Source of the DNA: Spirochaetia bacterium
GTDB taxonomy: Bacteria; Spirochaetota; Spirochaetia; UBA9216
Assembly: GCA_963675665.1 (NCBI GenBank)
Contig: OY776510.1
Span: forward strand, 2,560,001 to 2,624,000
Reading direction: 5' to 3'
Length of the DNA: 64,000 nucleotides
The position numbers and the translations under genes are program-made. The notes under the pieces were generated by a model that worked only from the letters and a program-made list of their open reading frames with translations, had not been told where the DNA came from and did no database searches. Numbering within the stretch: position 1 is the stretch's first letter; each line of letters starts with the position of its first letter. Below, one piece after another: positions 60,212 to 64,000 of the stretch.

Positions 60212-61100
60212 TCAAGTTAGATTGCTGGTGAATGTATTGCCGGCAATCGCTGAATCAACATGTTTCGCATTAAAGGGCGGTACCGCTATAAACCTATTTT
60301 TAAGAAATGTTCCTCGCTTATCGGTTGATATAGATCTTGTGTATGTTCTGATTAAAGAAAGAGATTTTTCTCTAAATGAGATTACTGATGAGCTTTTAAA
60401 AATCGCATCACGAATAAAGAAGATCATCCCTAATGCTGAAATCCAATACTCATACATTAATAAAACAAAATTTATAACAAAATTACTCGTTAGAAGTGAA
60501 CGCTCCATAGTGAAAATTGAGCTCTCTCCAGTTCTGCGCGGAACTGTCTACGAGCCTAAGACGAAAAGAATATCCCGGGATGCTGAGGAGCTATTTGGGT
60601 TTGCTGAGGTGCCGGTTGTTTCATTTGAAGATTTATTTGCCGGTAAAATTATTGCTGCTTTGGATAGGCAACATCCACGGGATCTCTTTGATATCAAGTT
60701 TCTACTTCAATCTGAGGGTATAACGCATTCGTTAAAAGAAGCATTTATTGTTTATCTCATTTCACATAATCGTAGGTTTATAGAAATCCTGAATCCGTCA
60801 TTGCTGAATTTATCACAATTATATCAAAATGAATTTACAGGAATGACGAACGAGAAGATAAGTATTGAAGAACTTGAATTGGTCAGAACTGAACTCATAG
60901 AAAAAGTGAATGGATTACTTGAAGATGAGGATAAAACATTTTTGATTAATTTTAAAAAAGGGAATCCGGATTGGGATTATTTCTCTGTACCACATATCAG
61001 GGAACTCCCGGCAGTAAAGTGGAAGTTGAATAACTTGCAGCAAATGGATAGTGCCGAAAGGTCAAAGATGATCCAAAATCTAATAGATTTTTTTAGTTAA
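60186..61100 (+). CDS. abiEii: Type IV TA toxin AbiEii-family nucleotidyltransferase
   Basis: FALKGGTAINLF, PRLSVDIDL, KIE, GKIIAALDRQHPRDLFD. Confidence 0.93.
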   Translation: MDRQNPYFNQVRLLVNVLPAIAESTCFALKGGTAINLFLRNVPRLSVDIDLVYVLIKERDFSLNEITDELLKIASRIKKIIPNAEIQYSYINKTKFITKLLVRSERSIVKIELSPVLRGTVYEPKTKRISRDAEELFGFAEVPVVSFEDLFAGKIIAALDRQHPRDLFDIKFLLQSEGITHSLKEAFIVYLISHNRRFIEILNPSLLNLSQLYQNEFTGMTNEKISIEELELVRTELIEKVNGLLEDEDKTFLINFKKGNPDWDYFSVPHIRELPAVKWKLNNLQQMDSAERSKMIQNLIDFFS

Positions 61101-61271
61101 TAGATTTTACAGTATCAGCCTCCCTCCCTATAAATACCTTGCTCCCGTAATACAATGGACGTACACTATTTCATTAAACTAATAGGAGGAATGATAAAAT
61201 AAACCTCTGATATGATGTGACCCATGTCAAGTTAAAATATCCAGGTTTTATCTATAAGATCCCCCCCCTGT

Positions 61272-61470
61272 CCAGGACAGGAAGAAAGATAGAACAACGT
61301 TTATGCGGCGATAGACCACTCTGATATTCGCGGATTGGTTACCGCAGGTCAATGGGATCGTCGGGAGCTGCCTCTGTCTAAAACCGAGGATCAATATTAT
61401 TATTGCCTCATAGAGGTGCCGAGGGTTCTCCTTTATCACTGTTGTTGTTCTATCCATCCTTCTGTCCTGG
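61272..61470 (-). ncRNA. Candidate bridge/seek RNA of the IS110-family element
   Basis: Long closing stem 61272-61298 / 61444-61470; internal segments match the reconstructed target and donor junctions. Confidence 0.7.
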
Positions 61471-61494
61471 TAGCTTATTAACCAACTATCGAAG

Positions 61495-62598
61495 TCATGC
61501 GACTTCTGTTCTACCTACCATCATTCCCCAAATAAATCCTGATAATTCTCTGGCAACTGCCGTAACAGTTTTCTGAGGGCATACCCCTCTACGAATCATC
61601 CTGAAATATTTCTTACTCAACCTTCTGCCGGCTTTATCAGCATAAGCTATTGTTTCAGCAGATTGTCCTTTCCTTCTCGCTGTCAGTCGTTTCGATGGCG
61701 AATACCTTTGGTAATGCCAGCTTGATTCCACTAACAGCCGTCGTAGCCTGGAGTTGCCGGCCTTCGTAATCCCGCCAAGCTTCCGGCCCTCTCCGCTTGA
61801 GTATTCTGACGGCACAAGTCCAAGATACGCCATGAAGGATTCCGCTTTTTTAAATCTTCTGAAATCTCCTATCTCGCATACAAATGTTAATGCTGTTAAT
61901 GTCTCTATACCTTTGAAACATCGAAGCCGGGATACCCTTTCTTTATATCTGTCTTCAGCAGCAATCTCTTCTATTTTTTCCTGCAACCGTTCAATCTTTT
62001 CCTCTAATTCCACAATCGCAAGATAATATTCTTTTAAAACTTCTTTATGCATTACCTGTTCAAACTGCAAGTTTTTCAACCAGGTTCGATGCGCCCCTGT
62101 CCAGTACTTTTTCCCAATATCATATTTCTTCCCGTTCCTTAGCAGAAACTGTAAGAGCCTCTGTTTCTGTTTCCTCAAATCAATTTTCATATCGTTACAC
62201 ATCCTCATGTAATCACGAACTGATTCATCTGTGCGTGTCGGTATATTCACCGGTGTTATTTCCTGATTCCTTAATGCTCTGGCTAATTTGACTGCATCCC
62301 TCTTGTCTGTCTTTATTCGGTCTCCGGGTTTCCTCGGCAATAATGATGGTGCTGCTACGTAACAGATAATTCCCATATCTTCAAGTAATCTATAAAGTGT
62401 AAATCCTGTAGGGCCTGCTTCGTAACAACACAGAATATTTTCTCCATTCTCTTTAAGTCGCTTGAAGAATCTTTTAATATTTCCGGGTTCGTTCCTGAGC
62501 TCTCTTTCAAACTCAGGATTCTGATAATTATCTCTGAATACCGCTACTGCGATTGATTCCTTGTGGACATCCATCCCTACATAAATTACACTATTCAT
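61495..62598 (-). CDS. IS110-family transposase/recombinase
   Basis: YVGMDVHK, YEAGPTG, KTDKRDA (DEDD); FKGIE, YLGLVPSEYSSG, ITKAGN. Confidence 0.95.
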   Translation of the reverse strand: MNSVIYVGMDVHKESIAVAVFRDNYQNPEFERELRNEPGNIKRFFKRLKENGENILCCYEAGPTGFTLYRLLEDMGIICYVAAPSLLPRKPGDRIKTDKRDAVKLARALRNQEITPVNIPTRTDESVRDYMRMCNDMKIDLRKQKQRLLQFLLRNGKKYDIGKKYWTGAHRTWLKNLQFEQVMHKEVLKEYYLAIVELEEKIERLQEKIEEIAAEDRYKERVSRLRCFKGIETLTALTFVCEIGDFRRFKKAESFMAYLGLVPSEYSSGEGRKLGGITKAGNSRLRRLLVESSWHYQRYSPSKRLTARRKGQSAETIAYADKAGRRLSKKYFRMIRRGVCPQKTVTAVARELSGFIWGMMVGRTEVA

Positions 62599-62832
62599 AG
62601 TGGCCTCCGTTCCTTTGTATGTGGCGTGTCTGCGCTTTGCCATTAGCCATTGTGTAGGCTAATCCACGATTTTGCAAACACGGCGGTCACTTCATATTGT
62701 CTAAAGTACTCCGTACTTTTTGTTATTTTATCATTTGGTAGTTTGAAAATATCTTTTCAAACTACACCCCCAGACACCTGCATCCATGCAGGAATTTCTT
62801 ATAGGAGGAATGATAAAAAGTCTTCATGAGCT

Positions 62833-62990
62833 GGTGAATTGATATACTGCCTTAACTTTAATTGAGGCAGTAAGGTTACTGTTCGACATTTTTACTGGTC
62901 CGCGAGACCGTTTAGGAGATTGAAGAGCCGTAACCGAAACATTCAATGGTCTGCGAGACCGGATAGGAGAATGGAACAATTCACCGTATA
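62833..62990 (+). ncRNA. Candidate bridge RNA in the 5' non-coding end of second IS110 element
   Basis: Twin hairpins ggtc-cgcga-gacc and ggtc-tgcga-gacc, each followed by taggaga; stems ggttac/gtaacc, cattc/gaatg, ggtgaattg/caattcacc, ctgcct/aggcag. Confidence 0.6.
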
Positions 62991-63020
62991 GGCACTGCTT
63001 CAAACTATTGGAGATAGAAC

Positions 63021-64000
63021 ATGAAGATGAGTATTGGCGTGGATCTTCACAAAACGCAGTTTACAGTATGCCTTTTAAGTGAAGACCGAAAAATTGATCA
63101 ATTGGGAATGTATCCGACCAGCGGAAATGGTTATGGAGCATTTCTGAAAATGCTGGATGAATATTGTGAAGAGGAATATGAGTTGAGAGCAGCGGTGGAA
63201 ACAACCGGGAATGCCCGTTATTTCCGCAATAAACTGTTAAAGGCTGGAGTCGAAGTGGTTGTAGTGAATACTTTGAAATTCAAGGTAGTGAATGAATCTG
63301 TAAAAAAGACAGACAAACATGATGCACGCACCCTGGCGGAGTTTCTTGAGAAAGACATGCTGCCTGAATCGATATTATGTTCCCAAGAGAGTGAGGATAT
63401 TCGAAGGGTGCTGAAATCCAGGTCGATACTGGTAAAATCTGTTGTGTCGTTAAAGAACCAGGTGCATGGCTTATTACTTGGTTATGGAATAGAGACCAAA
63501 CGCGGACAGCTGCAGAGTAAAAAAGAAAGGCAGCGAATCCTGAACGGTCTCGAGGACCACGACTTTTACGGAAGCGCTGCCAAAACGGTAATACCGTTAC
63601 TGGATATGATAGATAATCAGGCATCGCAAGTCAAGCAGCTTGAAAAGGTTTTGGCTGAGCTTGTGGAGGACGATGAAGATGTTGAGCTTCTGCAGACAAT
63701 ACCAGGCGTGGGTCTAATAACAGCAGCAACAGTAAGAGCCTATACAGACGATATCGGCAGATATGATAGTGCGAAGAAATATGCAGCAAACGCCGGGCTT
63801 GTGCCATGGGTGCAGAACTCAAATATGACAATACATCATGGACATATAACAAAGCGTGGGCCTGTAGAACTGAGGACAGCCTTCGTACAGATGGTGATGG
63901 GAATGGTTCGTATGCAAAAGAAGACCGGGACGTACCGAATAATGACGAAGTATGCAGCGATGAAGAAGCAGAAAGGCTCGGGTAAGAGTGTAATAGCTGC
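63021..64000 (+). CDS. IS110-family transposase, runs off window (absent from ORF track)
   Basis: Hand translation: MKMSIGVDLHKTQF, VETTGN, KKTDKHDA, TIPGVG, AGLVPWVQNS, GHITKRG. Confidence 0.92.
   Translation, partial: MKMSIGVDLHKTQFTVCLLSEDRKIDQLGMYPTSGNGYGAFLKMLDEYCEEEYELRAAVETTGNARYFRNKLLKAGVEVVVVNTLKFKVVNESVKKTDKHDARTLAEFLEKDMLPESILCSQESEDIRRVLKSRSILVKSVVSLKNQVHGLLLGYGIETKRGQLQSKKERQRILNGLEDHDFYGSAAKTVIPLLDMIDNQASQVKQLEKVLAELVEDDEDVELLQTIPGVGLITAATVRAYTDDIGRYDSAKKYAANAGLVPWVQNSNMTIHHGHITKRGPVELRTAFVQMVMGMVRMQKKTGTYRIMTKYAAMKKQKGSGKSVIA

What the first reader, a model, noticed from the sequence alone, without database searches (positions are those of the whole stretch)
61206..62702. IS110/IS1111-like element with readable guide segments in its 3' non-coding RNA
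Seen (element on minus strand): both ends share an AGA core, giving an empty target gtactttAGAggtttat and a circle junction catatcAGAcaatatg. The downstream non-coding region has a ~27-nt closing stem (61444-61470 with 61272-61298). In RNA order it contains: ACCUCUA (61417-61411, complementary to target tAGAggt); UUUAGA (61382-61377, identical to the target left half); AUUGACCUG (imperfectly complementary to donor cAGAcaat); AUAUCAGA (61327-61320, identical to the donor left half). Circularisation would also join TTGACA (61230-61225) to GACAAT at 17-bp spacing. Established: IS110/IS1111 recombinases use bridge/seek RNAs. Inference: a complete, potentially reprogrammable recombinase-RNA pair. 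The individual matches are short.
Basis: partly seen in the sequence, partly recalled or inferred. Interest (0 to 1): 0.7.

Follow-up and report, generated by a model that had tools for sequence, protein, structure and literature searches.

The report
IS1111-type insertion sequence with bridge RNA
This is an intact, recently active jumping gene of the IS110/IS1111 kind whose own folded guide RNA spells out both its insertion site and its own ends; it is a good natural example of a mechanism described in 2024, not a new one.

Summary
A 1,494-bp element on the minus strand (61207-62700) carries a 367-aa DEDD/serine recombinase gene and a 286-nt 3' non-coding region. That region folds into a long closing stem around two internal loops. 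The genome holds 7 near-identical copies, all at (T)TTAG|AGGT(T/G).

Relatives of 42-76% protein identity sit in different sites, and their loop sequences change to match.

- Across 67 distinct relatives, the right-target guide matches the cognate right flank over 6 nt or more in 28 of 46, against 18 of 3,036 non-cognate pairs.
- The left-target guide matches over 5 nt or more in 24 of 42, against 105 of 2,772.
- The donor guide is found once at the right end in 49 of 67.
- The RNA structure shows compensatory changes in 25 of 28 pairs.

One correction: the core is AG, not AGA. The junction promoter TTGACA-17-GACAAT is conserved in relatives.

No expression data exist and no reprogramming was tested. 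This is a new member of a known kind (bridge RNA/seekRNA; PMC11208160, PMC11187229). This scan has reported the same kind on other genomes before.

One modest new point: a handshake-like dinucleotide follows the left-target guide, not the right-target guide as in IS621.

The parts
61207..62700 (-). Whole insertion sequence, 1,494 bp counting one AG core (right-hand core included)
   Evidence: Seven copies in the genome share exactly this stretch. The length is 1,494 bp in each.
62701..62702 (-). Left copy of the AG core (end of the left target half, TTTAG)
   Evidence: Flank comparison of the 7 copies and of the relative L008/L031.
61207..61208 (-). Right copy of the AG core (end of CATATCAG)
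   Evidence: The core is AG in 47 of 49 relatives' right ends.
62685..62697 (-). Left subterminal inverted repeat, ATATGAAGTGACC, starting 3 nt inside the element
   Evidence: Read. It matches the reverse complement of 61210-61222 at 12 of 13 positions. The same repeat occurs in relatives.
61210..61222 (-). Right subterminal inverted repeat, GGTCACATCATAT, ending 1 nt before the core
   Evidence: Read. Conserved in alignment A2.
61495..62598 (-). Recombinase (transposase) gene, 367 aa, with GGAGG 7 nt upstream of the ATG
   Evidence: ORF list. Pfam PF01548 and PF02371. NCBIfam NF033542. IS621 structure 8wt6 at E 2e-10, with catalytic residues aligned.
61272..61470 (-). Bridge (seek) RNA: a 27-bp closing stem enclosing the target-binding and donor-binding domains
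   Evidence: Fold at -89.4 kcal/mol, z -2.48. Consensus fold of 8 relatives has 22 of 50 pairs with compensatory changes.
61364..61431 (-). Target-binding domain: two stems around an internal loop, capped by a hairpin
   Evidence: Covariance model R1. Helices 1-4 are 92-95% paired in 73 distinct sequences.
61412..61420 (-). Right-target guide, GGCACCUCU: complement of AG+AGGTGCC (top strand, core included)
   Evidence: Covaries with the right flank. Cognate matches of 6 nt or more occur in 28 of 46 loci, against 18 of 3,036 non-cognate pairs.
61378..61385 (-). Left-target guide, GGUUUUAG: identical to the left target half plus core (pairs with the bottom strand)
   Evidence: Covaries with the left flank. 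Cognate matches of 5 nt or more occur in 24 of 42 loci, against 105 of 2,772 non-cognate pairs.
61375..61377 (-). ACA directly 3' of the left-target guide: identical to the first bases of the element (handshake-like)
   Evidence: The first two positions equal the first two bases of the element's left end at 49 of 54 positions in 27 relatives, against 5 of 54 for the uninterrupted target.
61306..61363 (-). Donor-binding domain
   Evidence: R1 model. The closing stem CGACGAU/AUCGCCG and the inner hairpin UGCGG/CCGCG show compensatory changes.
61346..61353 (-). Right-donor guide, AUUGACCU: discontiguous complement of AG-A-CAAT at the left end
   Evidence: AUUG changes to ACGG, GAUA or AGGG where the left end is CCGT, TATC or CCCT (read by eye, not counted).
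61321..61328 (-). Left-donor guide, AAUAUCAG: identical to the right end CATATCAG
   Evidence: Its last 7 nt occur exactly once downstream in 49 of 67 relatives. Variants (AAGAG, CAGAG, ATGAG, AACAG) match the variant right ends.
61225..61230 (-). Outward-facing -35 hexamer TTGACA of the circle-junction promoter
   Evidence: Invariant in 8 relatives. Junction promoters scoring 9 of 12 or better occur in 23 of 38 circle junctions, against 2 of 38 integrated right junctions.
62696..62700 (-). ACAAT: together with the core G it forms the -10 hexamer GACAAT after circularisation
   Evidence: Read; scored (TTGACA, 17 nt, GACAAT, 10 of 12).

Best explanation
The element is an intact IS110-family insertion sequence with the IS1111-type layout. 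It encodes a DEDD/serine recombinase and, downstream of that gene, a two-loop bridge RNA (seekRNA).

Shown by comparison:
- The target loop carries GGCACCUCU, the complement of core plus right target. It also carries GGUUUUAG, identical to left target plus core. Together they specify GGTTTT-AG-AGGTGCC.
- The donor loop carries AAUAUCAG, identical to the right end. It also carries AUUGACCU, a discontiguous complement of the left end.
- The core is AG.

Inferred from the family:
- The element excises as a circle.
- Joining the ends creates the promoter TTGACA-17-GACAAT.
- That promoter transcribes the recombinase gene and the RNA as one transcript, and the RNA is then processed from it.
- A recombinase tetramer loaded with the RNA pairs one loop with the circle junction and the other with a genomic site, and exchanges strands at the AG core.

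In this genome the preferred site is the 3' arm of a REP-like palindrome. The window copy sits in a poorer site.
For: Protein family and catalytic residues.

Copies and target:
- Seven copies at about 100% identity share the same ends and the target (T)TTAG|AGGT.
- Their sites match the guide-derived 15-mer at 9, 12, 12, 14, 11, 13 and 12 of 15 positions.

Natural reprogramming:
- The 68%-identical relative in the same genome and six relatives in other genomes (42-76% protein identity) sit in seven other sites. In each, the loop segments have changed to match.

Wider sample:
- The RNA model hits 70 of 83 further loci from many phyla, always downstream of the gene on the same strand.
- With ends defined without using the target guides, cognate right-target matches average 5.33 nt against 2.02 for non-cognate pairs.
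- Cognate left-target matches average 4.57 nt against 2.38. Permutation gave 0 of 2,000 for both.
- The donor-guide 7-mer is found once downstream in 49 of 67. Variant donor guides track variant ends.

RNA structure: 90.9% of cells pair, against 69.2% when shuffled and 35-52% when slid. Compensatory changes occur in 25 of 28 pairs.

Promoter:
- The junction promoter is conserved.
- No sigma-70-like site lies on the element's strand in the linear form. PMC11187229 reports the same for ISEc11.

The layout and guide order agree with PMC11187229. The four-guide scheme agrees with PMC11208160.
Against: - There is no expression or binding evidence. No RNA run is listed for this DNA, and Rfam has no matching family.
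- The window copy's own site matches only 9 of 15 guide positions.
- The right-donor guide is imperfect, with one bulge and one mismatch.
- In the wider sample, 18 of 67 loci lack the donor-guide 7-mer downstream.
- 9 of 46 show 2 nt or fewer of right-target match, and 5 of 42 show 2 nt or fewer of left-target match. These may be decayed copies, alignment shifts or contig ends, but they were not resolved.
- The sequences are related, so the counts overstate independence.
- The recombinase aligns with the classical IS1111 members IS4321, IS5075 and ISKpn4 only over residues 198-293. At 367 aa it is longer than the 330-350 aa given for that family (PMC11187229).
Confidence: 0.93

Rival explanations
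1. Only the short target-loop RNA (a seekRNA of about 70-100 nt) acts as a guide. The 'donor loop' is a protein-binding scaffold, and the ends are recognised by the recombinase through the subterminal inverted repeats rather than by RNA pairing.
For: PMC11187229 reports that the short seekRNA, which holds only the target matches, was sufficient for ISEc11 movement. It also stresses that IS1111 elements have long subterminal repeats, which are present here at 12 of 13. The 5' side of the donor loop can pair within the RNA: CC-AUU with AGUGG here, AUCACG with CGUGAU in L021 (read by eye). The right-donor guide is imperfect.
Against: The left-donor guide tracks the right end through at least eight variant forms in relatives. 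It is found once downstream in 49 of 67. The AUUG part of the right-donor guide changes with the left end. Conservation alone would not give this pattern.
Confidence: 0.05
2. The matches act at the DNA level, as internal copies of target and end sequences bound by protein or used in DNA-DNA pairing. No RNA is involved.
For: No transcript has been observed for this element (one search lists no RNA holder, so this cannot be weighed either way).
Against: The region keeps a secondary structure through compensatory changes in 25 of 28 pairs. The guides sit in the internal loops of that structure. One guide of each pair is complementary to the site and the other identical to it, as in the RNA-DNA complexes solved for IS621 (PMC11208158). 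RNA from the same region co-purifies with the recombinases of related elements (PMC11187229).
Confidence: 0.01
3. The element is a fossil: the sequence features are real, but this copy no longer moves.
For: No circle junction or true empty site was seen in the contigs laid on the locus. The window copy sits in a poor site.
Against: Seven copies are about 100% identical with intact 367-aa frames. The decayed relative L008/L031 shows what a fossil looks like here: a single copy with a TAA stop and a 10-bp deletion. Depth in the organism's own runs fits about 8 copies.
Confidence: 0.05

Closest known systems
IS1111-family elements with a downstream seekRNA (ISEc11, ISPa11, ISKpn4, ISPst6; Siddiquee et al. 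2024, PMC11187229: abstract and sections 6, 8, 9, 13, 14 read)
   Same: DEDD recombinase with the GL-P----SG motif. Subterminal inverted repeats. The long non-coding region lies downstream of the gene. The top-strand match lies 5' of the bottom-strand match in the RNA. The only promoter is the one made by joining the ends. Insertion into a REP-like palindrome, as for ISPa11.
   Different: The recombinase is 367 aa, against 330-350 aa. By tblastn it aligns with ISKpn4, IS4321 and IS5075 only over residues 198-293, at 34-38% identity. The target is different. Nothing was tested experimentally here.
IS621 bridge RNA and recombinase (Durrant et al. 2024, PMC11208160, passages read; Hiraizumi et al. 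2024, PMC11208158, passages read; PDB 8wt6)
   Same: [quoted passage not shown] One donor guide is discontiguous. The catalytic D, E, D, D and S are conserved. The promoter is rebuilt at the circle junction.
   Different: The RNA lies downstream rather than upstream of the gene. The order of guides within each loop is reversed. The core is AG on the gene's strand (CT on the other strand), against CT. The handshake-like dinucleotide follows the left-target guide, not the right-target guide. Protein similarity is confined to the C-terminal domain (E 2e-10).
ISEc45 (name as given in RefSeq annotation of Escherichia plasmids)
   Same: It is the closest named element: 43.7% identity over residues 2-362. 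The same RNA model matches downstream of its gene (31 bits, E 1.7e-5).
   Different: The ends and target guides differ. I did not establish how ISfinder groups ISEc45.

Membership tests
IS110 family (broad sense) | DEDD (RuvC-like) N-terminal domain plus the C-terminal Transposase_20 domain with the catalytic serine | tested here: met
   PF01548 at E 2.4e-13 and PF02371 at E 3.4e-22. NF033542 at 240 bits, cut-off 140. D10, E60, D98, D101 and S268 align to the IS621 catalytic residues and are invariant in 7 relatives.
IS110 family (broad sense) | Site-specific insertion without long target duplication; a short core shared by the target and the joined ends | tested here: met
   All 7 copies lie at (T)TTAG|AGGT with an AG core. 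Uninterrupted paralogous sites exist, for example GTTATTAGAGGTGCC at genome position 2935149.
IS1111 group | Subterminal inverted repeats of 7-17 bp (PMC11208160, PMC11187229) | tested here: met
   ATATGAAGTGACC (62697-62685) matches the reverse complement of 61222-61210 at 12 of 13 positions, 3 nt and 1 nt inside the ends.
IS1111 group | The longer non-coding region lies downstream of the recombinase gene | tested here: met
   286 nt downstream (61209-61494) against 102 nt upstream (62599-62700).
IS1111 group | GL-P----S(T)G motif in the C-terminal domain (PMC11187229) | tested here: met
   GLVPSEYSSG in the translation. G260, P263, S268 and G269 are invariant in A1.
IS1111 group | Recombinase related over its full length to that of IS1111 and 330-350 aa long (PMC11187229) | tested here: inconclusive
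   The protein is 367 aa. tblastn aligns IS4321, IS5075 and ISKpn4 only over residues 190-334 at most. No tree with reference members was built, because reference sequences of IS1111 itself were not available to me.
Bridge RNA / seekRNA | [quoted passage not shown] | tested here: met
   Positions and covariation with the flanks. Structure covariation.
Bridge RNA / seekRNA | A second loop that pairs with the joined ends of the element (donor) | tested here: met
   The left-donor guide tracks the right end. The right-donor guide is discontiguous and was judged by eye only.
Bridge RNA / seekRNA | The RNA is transcribed, binds the recombinase and is required for recombination | not testable with these tools
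   No RNA run is listed for this DNA. This needs bench work.
Bridge RNA / seekRNA | Match to a curated RNA family | tested here: not met
   No Rfam 15 family matches 60500-64000 at E of 1 or below. Whether Rfam holds a model for this RNA type was not checked.

The most novel reading that the evidence does not exclude
In this clade the RNA-DNA geometry of the target loop mirrors that of IS621.

Read on the strand opposite to the recombinase gene, three things line up with IS621:
- The core is CT, as in IS621.
- The 5' guide equals left half plus core, and the 3' guide is complementary to core plus right half.
- The 3' guide is followed by a dinucleotide that pairs with the donor only after strand exchange. 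It matches the element's first two bases at 49 of 54 positions, against 5 of 54 for the uninterrupted target.

This would mean that the first strand exchanged is the one antisense to the gene. It would also mean that the 'reversed order' of guides noted for IS1111-type RNAs (PMC11187229) is a change of strand, not a different mechanism.

Two results go against a full mirror. No such dinucleotide follows the right-target guide (6 of 54). None follows the left-donor guide either (22 of 92, which is chance level). The discontiguous donor guide also sits on the other side of the loop than in IS621. The mirror therefore holds for the target loop only.

One full-text search for 'handshake' together with 'IS1111' listed no paper that states this in its title or abstract. 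I did not read those papers' figures or supplements.
Probability: 0.35. Interest if true: 0.45.

Novelty: new member of a known kind. Interest (0 to 1): 0.3.

Why it matters
The element adds a well-documented natural member to the RNA-guided IS110/IS1111 recombinases. It has exact ends, a 15-bp guide-derived target, a family-wide RNA model and many naturally reprogrammed relatives from several phyla.

Such sets help in choosing and designing compact recombinase-RNA pairs. They also help annotation, because the 3' region would otherwise be left blank or called as a spurious 69-aa ORF.

It does not change what is known about the mechanism. The handshake placement is a small, testable addition.

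Tried and rejected
- Rfam 15 scan of 60500-64000 at E of 1 or below: no match.
- Search for sequencing runs: no RNA holder listed, so nothing can be said about expression.
- Contigs of 4 DNA runs laid on 60700-63000. The joints that skip the element (61202 to 62703 or 62721, with other letters between) come from paralogous copies of the flanking repeat, such as L010. They are not a true empty site. No circle junction was seen, and contigs drop rare forms.
- First attempt to find element ends in relatives by the best inverted repeat alone. It worked in AT-rich loci and gave spurious GC-rich repeats in many others. It was replaced by the donor-guide 7-mer plus the subterminal repeat. One search was a script error, fixed.
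- Sigma-70-like promoter scan of the linear element: none on the element's strand.
- Handshake-like pairing next to the right-target guide (6 of 54) and next to the left-donor guide (22 of 92): not found.
- Notes of this scan near this place: none.
- I considered a tree to place the recombinase among named IS1111 and IS110 members and did not build it, for lack of reference sequences.
- No structure prediction or complex prediction was run. The family is solved (8wt6), so a model would not have changed the verdict.

Full report
WHAT IS THERE

On the minus strand of the window lies a 1,494-bp element, 61207-62700 counting one core.

- It holds one long ORF, 61495-62598, of 367 aa from the ATG that follows GGAGG.
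- The protein carries Pfam PF01548 (DEDD_Tnp_IS110) and PF02371.
- It passes NCBIfam NF033542, 'IS110 family RNA-guided transposase', at 240 bits against a cut-off of 140.
- Its only solved relatives are the IS621 and ISCro4 recombinases (8wt6 at E 2e-10, 9t56). In that alignment the catalytic D, E, D, D and S of IS621 fall on D10, E60, D98, D101 and S268.
- All five residues are invariant among seven relatives of 42-76% identity.
- The upstream non-coding stretch is 102 nt and the downstream one is 286 nt.
- ATATGAAGTGACC (62697-62685) and the reverse complement of 61222-61210 form a 12-of-13 subterminal inverted repeat.

COPIES, ENDS AND TARGET

The window's genome is one contig of 5.15 Mb. 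It holds seven copies at about 100% identity and one relative at 68%.

- All seven copies are bounded by ...(T)TTAG on the left and AGGT(T/G) on the right.
- In six of them the site is the 3' arm of a REP-like palindrome, AACCTCT(A/G)A...T(T/A)TTAGAGGTT.
- Uninterrupted paralogues of that palindrome exist in the same genome, for example at 386486/386513, 2935154 and 4993759.
- The window copy sits in a different repeat and in a poorer site.
- The 68% relative (L008/L031) has the same ends but reads CCGTAG|ACAATATG and CATATCAG|CTTTTT.

THE RNA

The downstream region folds at -89.4 kcal/mol, against -76.3 +/- 5.3 for shuffles. The fold has three features:

- a first domain (61364-61431) with an internal loop;
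- a second domain (61306-61363) with another internal loop.

A consensus fold of eight relatives keeps the closing stem and the first domain, with compensatory changes in 22 of 50 pairs.

I built a covariance model of the 130-nt core from these eight sequences.

- It matches 70 of 83 further loci at E of 0.01 or below, always downstream of the recombinase gene on the same strand.
- Those loci were fetched by protein similarity from genomes of Spirochaetota, Bacillota, Actinomycetota, Alphaproteobacteria and others.
- It also matches downstream of the gene in ISEc45 (31 bits) and in a Leptospira plasmid element (65.7 bits).
- On 73 distinct sequences, 90.9% of cells form standard pairs, against 69.2% after shuffling and 35-52% when partners are slid.
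- 25 of 28 pairs show changes on both sides. That alignment was fitted to the model, so it leans towards the structure.

GUIDES FOR THE TARGET

The 5' side of the first loop reads GGCACCUCU, the complement of AG+AGGTGCC. The 3' side reads GGUUUUAG, identical to GGTTTT+AG.

The seven occupied sites match the resulting 15-mer at 9, 12, 12, 14, 11, 13 and 12 positions. The window copy is the 9.

The decisive test is natural reprogramming.

- In the eight close relatives the two loop segments differ while the flanking stems are conserved.
- Each pair of segments matches its own insertion site. The eight sites are TTTAG|AGGTT, CCGTAG|CTTTTT, TTAG|GCTG, CTATAG|TTTTTT, TCCTTAG|GAGT, TTAG|AATTGCT, CCCAAG|GGGCG and CTAG|GGAA.

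For the wider set I reduced 74 matches to 67 distinct guide pairs. A free search of the flanks gave these results:

- Cognate right-guide matches of 6 nt or more in 39 of 60 loci, against 273 of 3,960 non-cognate pairs.
- Cognate left-guide matches of 5 nt or more in 42 of 61, against 1,095 of 4,026.

I then fixed the ends without using the target guides. The right end was set by the donor-guide 7-mer. The left end was set by the subterminal repeat plus a 2-nt offset rule learned from three elements. Results:

- Right guide: 6 nt or more in 28 of 46 cognate loci, against 18 of 3,036 non-cognate pairs.
- Left guide: 5 nt or more in 24 of 42, against 105 of 2,772.
- Shuffling the assignments reached the observed means in 0 of 2,000 trials for each guide.
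- Misses: 9 of 46 loci show 2 nt or fewer for the right guide, and 5 of 42 for the left guide.
- Related sequences share guides and sites, so these counts are not independent events.

GUIDES FOR THE DONOR

The 3' side of the second loop reads AAUAUCAG, the right end of the element.

- Its last 7 nt occur exactly once in the 320 nt downstream of the RNA in 49 of 67 loci, and not at all in 18.
- Variant guides go with variant ends: AAGAG with CATAAGAG, CAGAG with CATCAGAG, AUGAG with CATATGAG, AACAG with CATAACAG, and ACAUCAG with CACATCAG.
- In two loci the core itself differs. L042 has AA and L068 has AT. All four guides of those loci carry the changed core.

The 5' side reads AUUGACCU. It is complementary to the left end AG-A-CAAT only with one bulge and one mismatch.

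- The AUUG part changes to ACGG, GAUA or AGGG where the left end reads CCGT, TATC or CCCT. I read this by eye and did not count it.
- A discontiguous right-donor guide is also reported for IS621 (PMC11208160, passage read).
- Part of this side can also pair within the RNA: CC-AUU with AGUGG here, and AUCACG with CGUGAU in L021. Its role is therefore the least certain of the four guides.

PROMOTER

No sigma-70-like site lies on the element's strand in the linear form.

- TTGACA at 61230-61225 faces outward, 17 nt from the core G. Joining the ends puts GACAAT behind it, scoring 10 of 12.
- The hexamer is invariant in the eight close relatives.
- Among 38 relatives with both ends defined, a promoter of 9 of 12 or better spans the circle junction in 23. 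The same right end with its actual flank reaches that score in 2. Five junctions gave no promoter at all.
- This fits the junction promoters described for ISEc11 and IS621 (PMC11187229 section 8; PMC11208160 passages). It implies that the gene and the RNA are co-transcribed from the circle. That step is inferred.

COMPARISON WITH WHAT IS KNOWN

Every feature matches the published description of IS1111-type elements and their seekRNA or bridge RNA:

- the RNA lies downstream of the gene;
- the subterminal repeats are long;
- the top-strand match lies 5' of the bottom-strand match;
- the core is included in each guide;
- the target is REP-like (PMC11187229; PMC11208160).

Durrant et al. state that covariance models predict a bridge RNA in 93% of ISfinder's IS1111 elements. 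The kind is therefore known, and this scan has reported it on other genomes.

In protein sequence the element is far from the classical members. ISEc45 is the closest named one, at 43.7% identity over the full length. IS4321, IS5075 and ISKpn4 align only over the C-terminal domain. I file it as an IS110-family element with the IS1111 layout, and I leave its clade open.

ONE SMALL ADDITION

In IS621 a 'handshake' dinucleotide follows the right-target guide and pairs with the donor after strand exchange (PMC11208158, section read in passages).

- Here the two bases after the left-target guide equal the first two bases of the element at 49 of 54 positions in 27 relatives. They equal the uninterrupted target at only 5 of 54.
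- The classes are AC, TT, TC and AA, so the number of independent events is small.
- The bases after the right-target guide match the donor at 6 of 54.
- The bases after the left-donor guide match the target at 22 of 92, which is chance level.
- Read on the other strand, the core AG is CT and the target loop has the IS621 order. The novel reading rests on this.

LIMITS

- There is no transcript, binding or transposition evidence.
- 'Reprogrammable' is inferred from relatives and from the literature.
- Supplementary tables of the cited papers, which list predicted bridge RNAs of ISfinder elements, were not opened. They may already include close relatives of this element.

Noticed in passing
window 62806-64000 (+), running past the window end; 15 copies in the genome: A second, unrelated IS110-family element lies next door (recombinase gene from 63021, NF033542 at 196 bits), with its long non-coding region upstream of the gene. 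All 15 copies sit at T(T)ATAGGAG, a ribosome-binding-site-like motif a few bases before the ATG of the downstream gene. The element's own right end repeats TTTTTATAGGAG, so the gene keeps such a motif. Its upstream RNA folds well (z -3.8) and holds two modules, GGUC(C/U)GCGAGACC followed by UAGGAG. From memory, insertion between ribosome-binding site and start codon is known for IS900-type members of this family; I did not check that here.
   Followed up: partly
window 62703-62805 and 61181-61206; paralogues L009-L014: The window copy of the element under study sits inside a multi-copy intergenic repeat of about 100 nt with three hairpins. One end of the repeat reads like the left junction of the neighbouring second element (ATAGGAGGAATGATAAAA). 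The other end is the hairpin CCTGCATCCATGCAGG plus AATTTCTT. It may be a miniature derivative of that element.
   Followed up: partly
G000:C1:4456572-4458051 (-), loci L008/L031: A single decayed relative, 68% identical in DNA, lies in the same genome. Its recombinase gene has a TAA stop and a 10-bp deletion. Its RNA is intact, with target guides for CCGTAG|CTTTTT and one C-for-U change in the left-donor guide.
   Followed up: yes
L043, L050, L055 (Coriobacteriia metagenome-assembled genomes): The left-target and left-donor guides carry core AG, but the right-target guide carries UU and the right junction reads CATATCAA. The two junctions of one element therefore show different core dinucleotides. 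This is unexplained. It could be a mismatched core resolved by replication.
   Followed up: no
L042 and L068: Relatives whose core is AA and AT instead of AG. All four guides carry the changed core.
   Followed up: partly
window 61416, 61418, 61419 (also 61396, 61425) in run X9: A low-depth contig from a soil metagenome carries a near-identical element with three substitutions inside the right-target guide. It may be a naturally retargeted variant. Its flank was not resolved.
   Followed up: no
window 61248-61457 (-): A 69-aa ORF lies entirely within the structured RNA. It is most likely not a gene.
   Followed up: no
G000 genome: 386486/386513, 2935149, 918430, 4608856 and others: 13 unoccupied sites lie within 3 mismatches of the guide-derived 15-mer (4 sites with 2 mismatches, 9 with 3). 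Some are the opposite arm of an occupied palindrome. The element has not filled its possible sites.
   Followed up: partly
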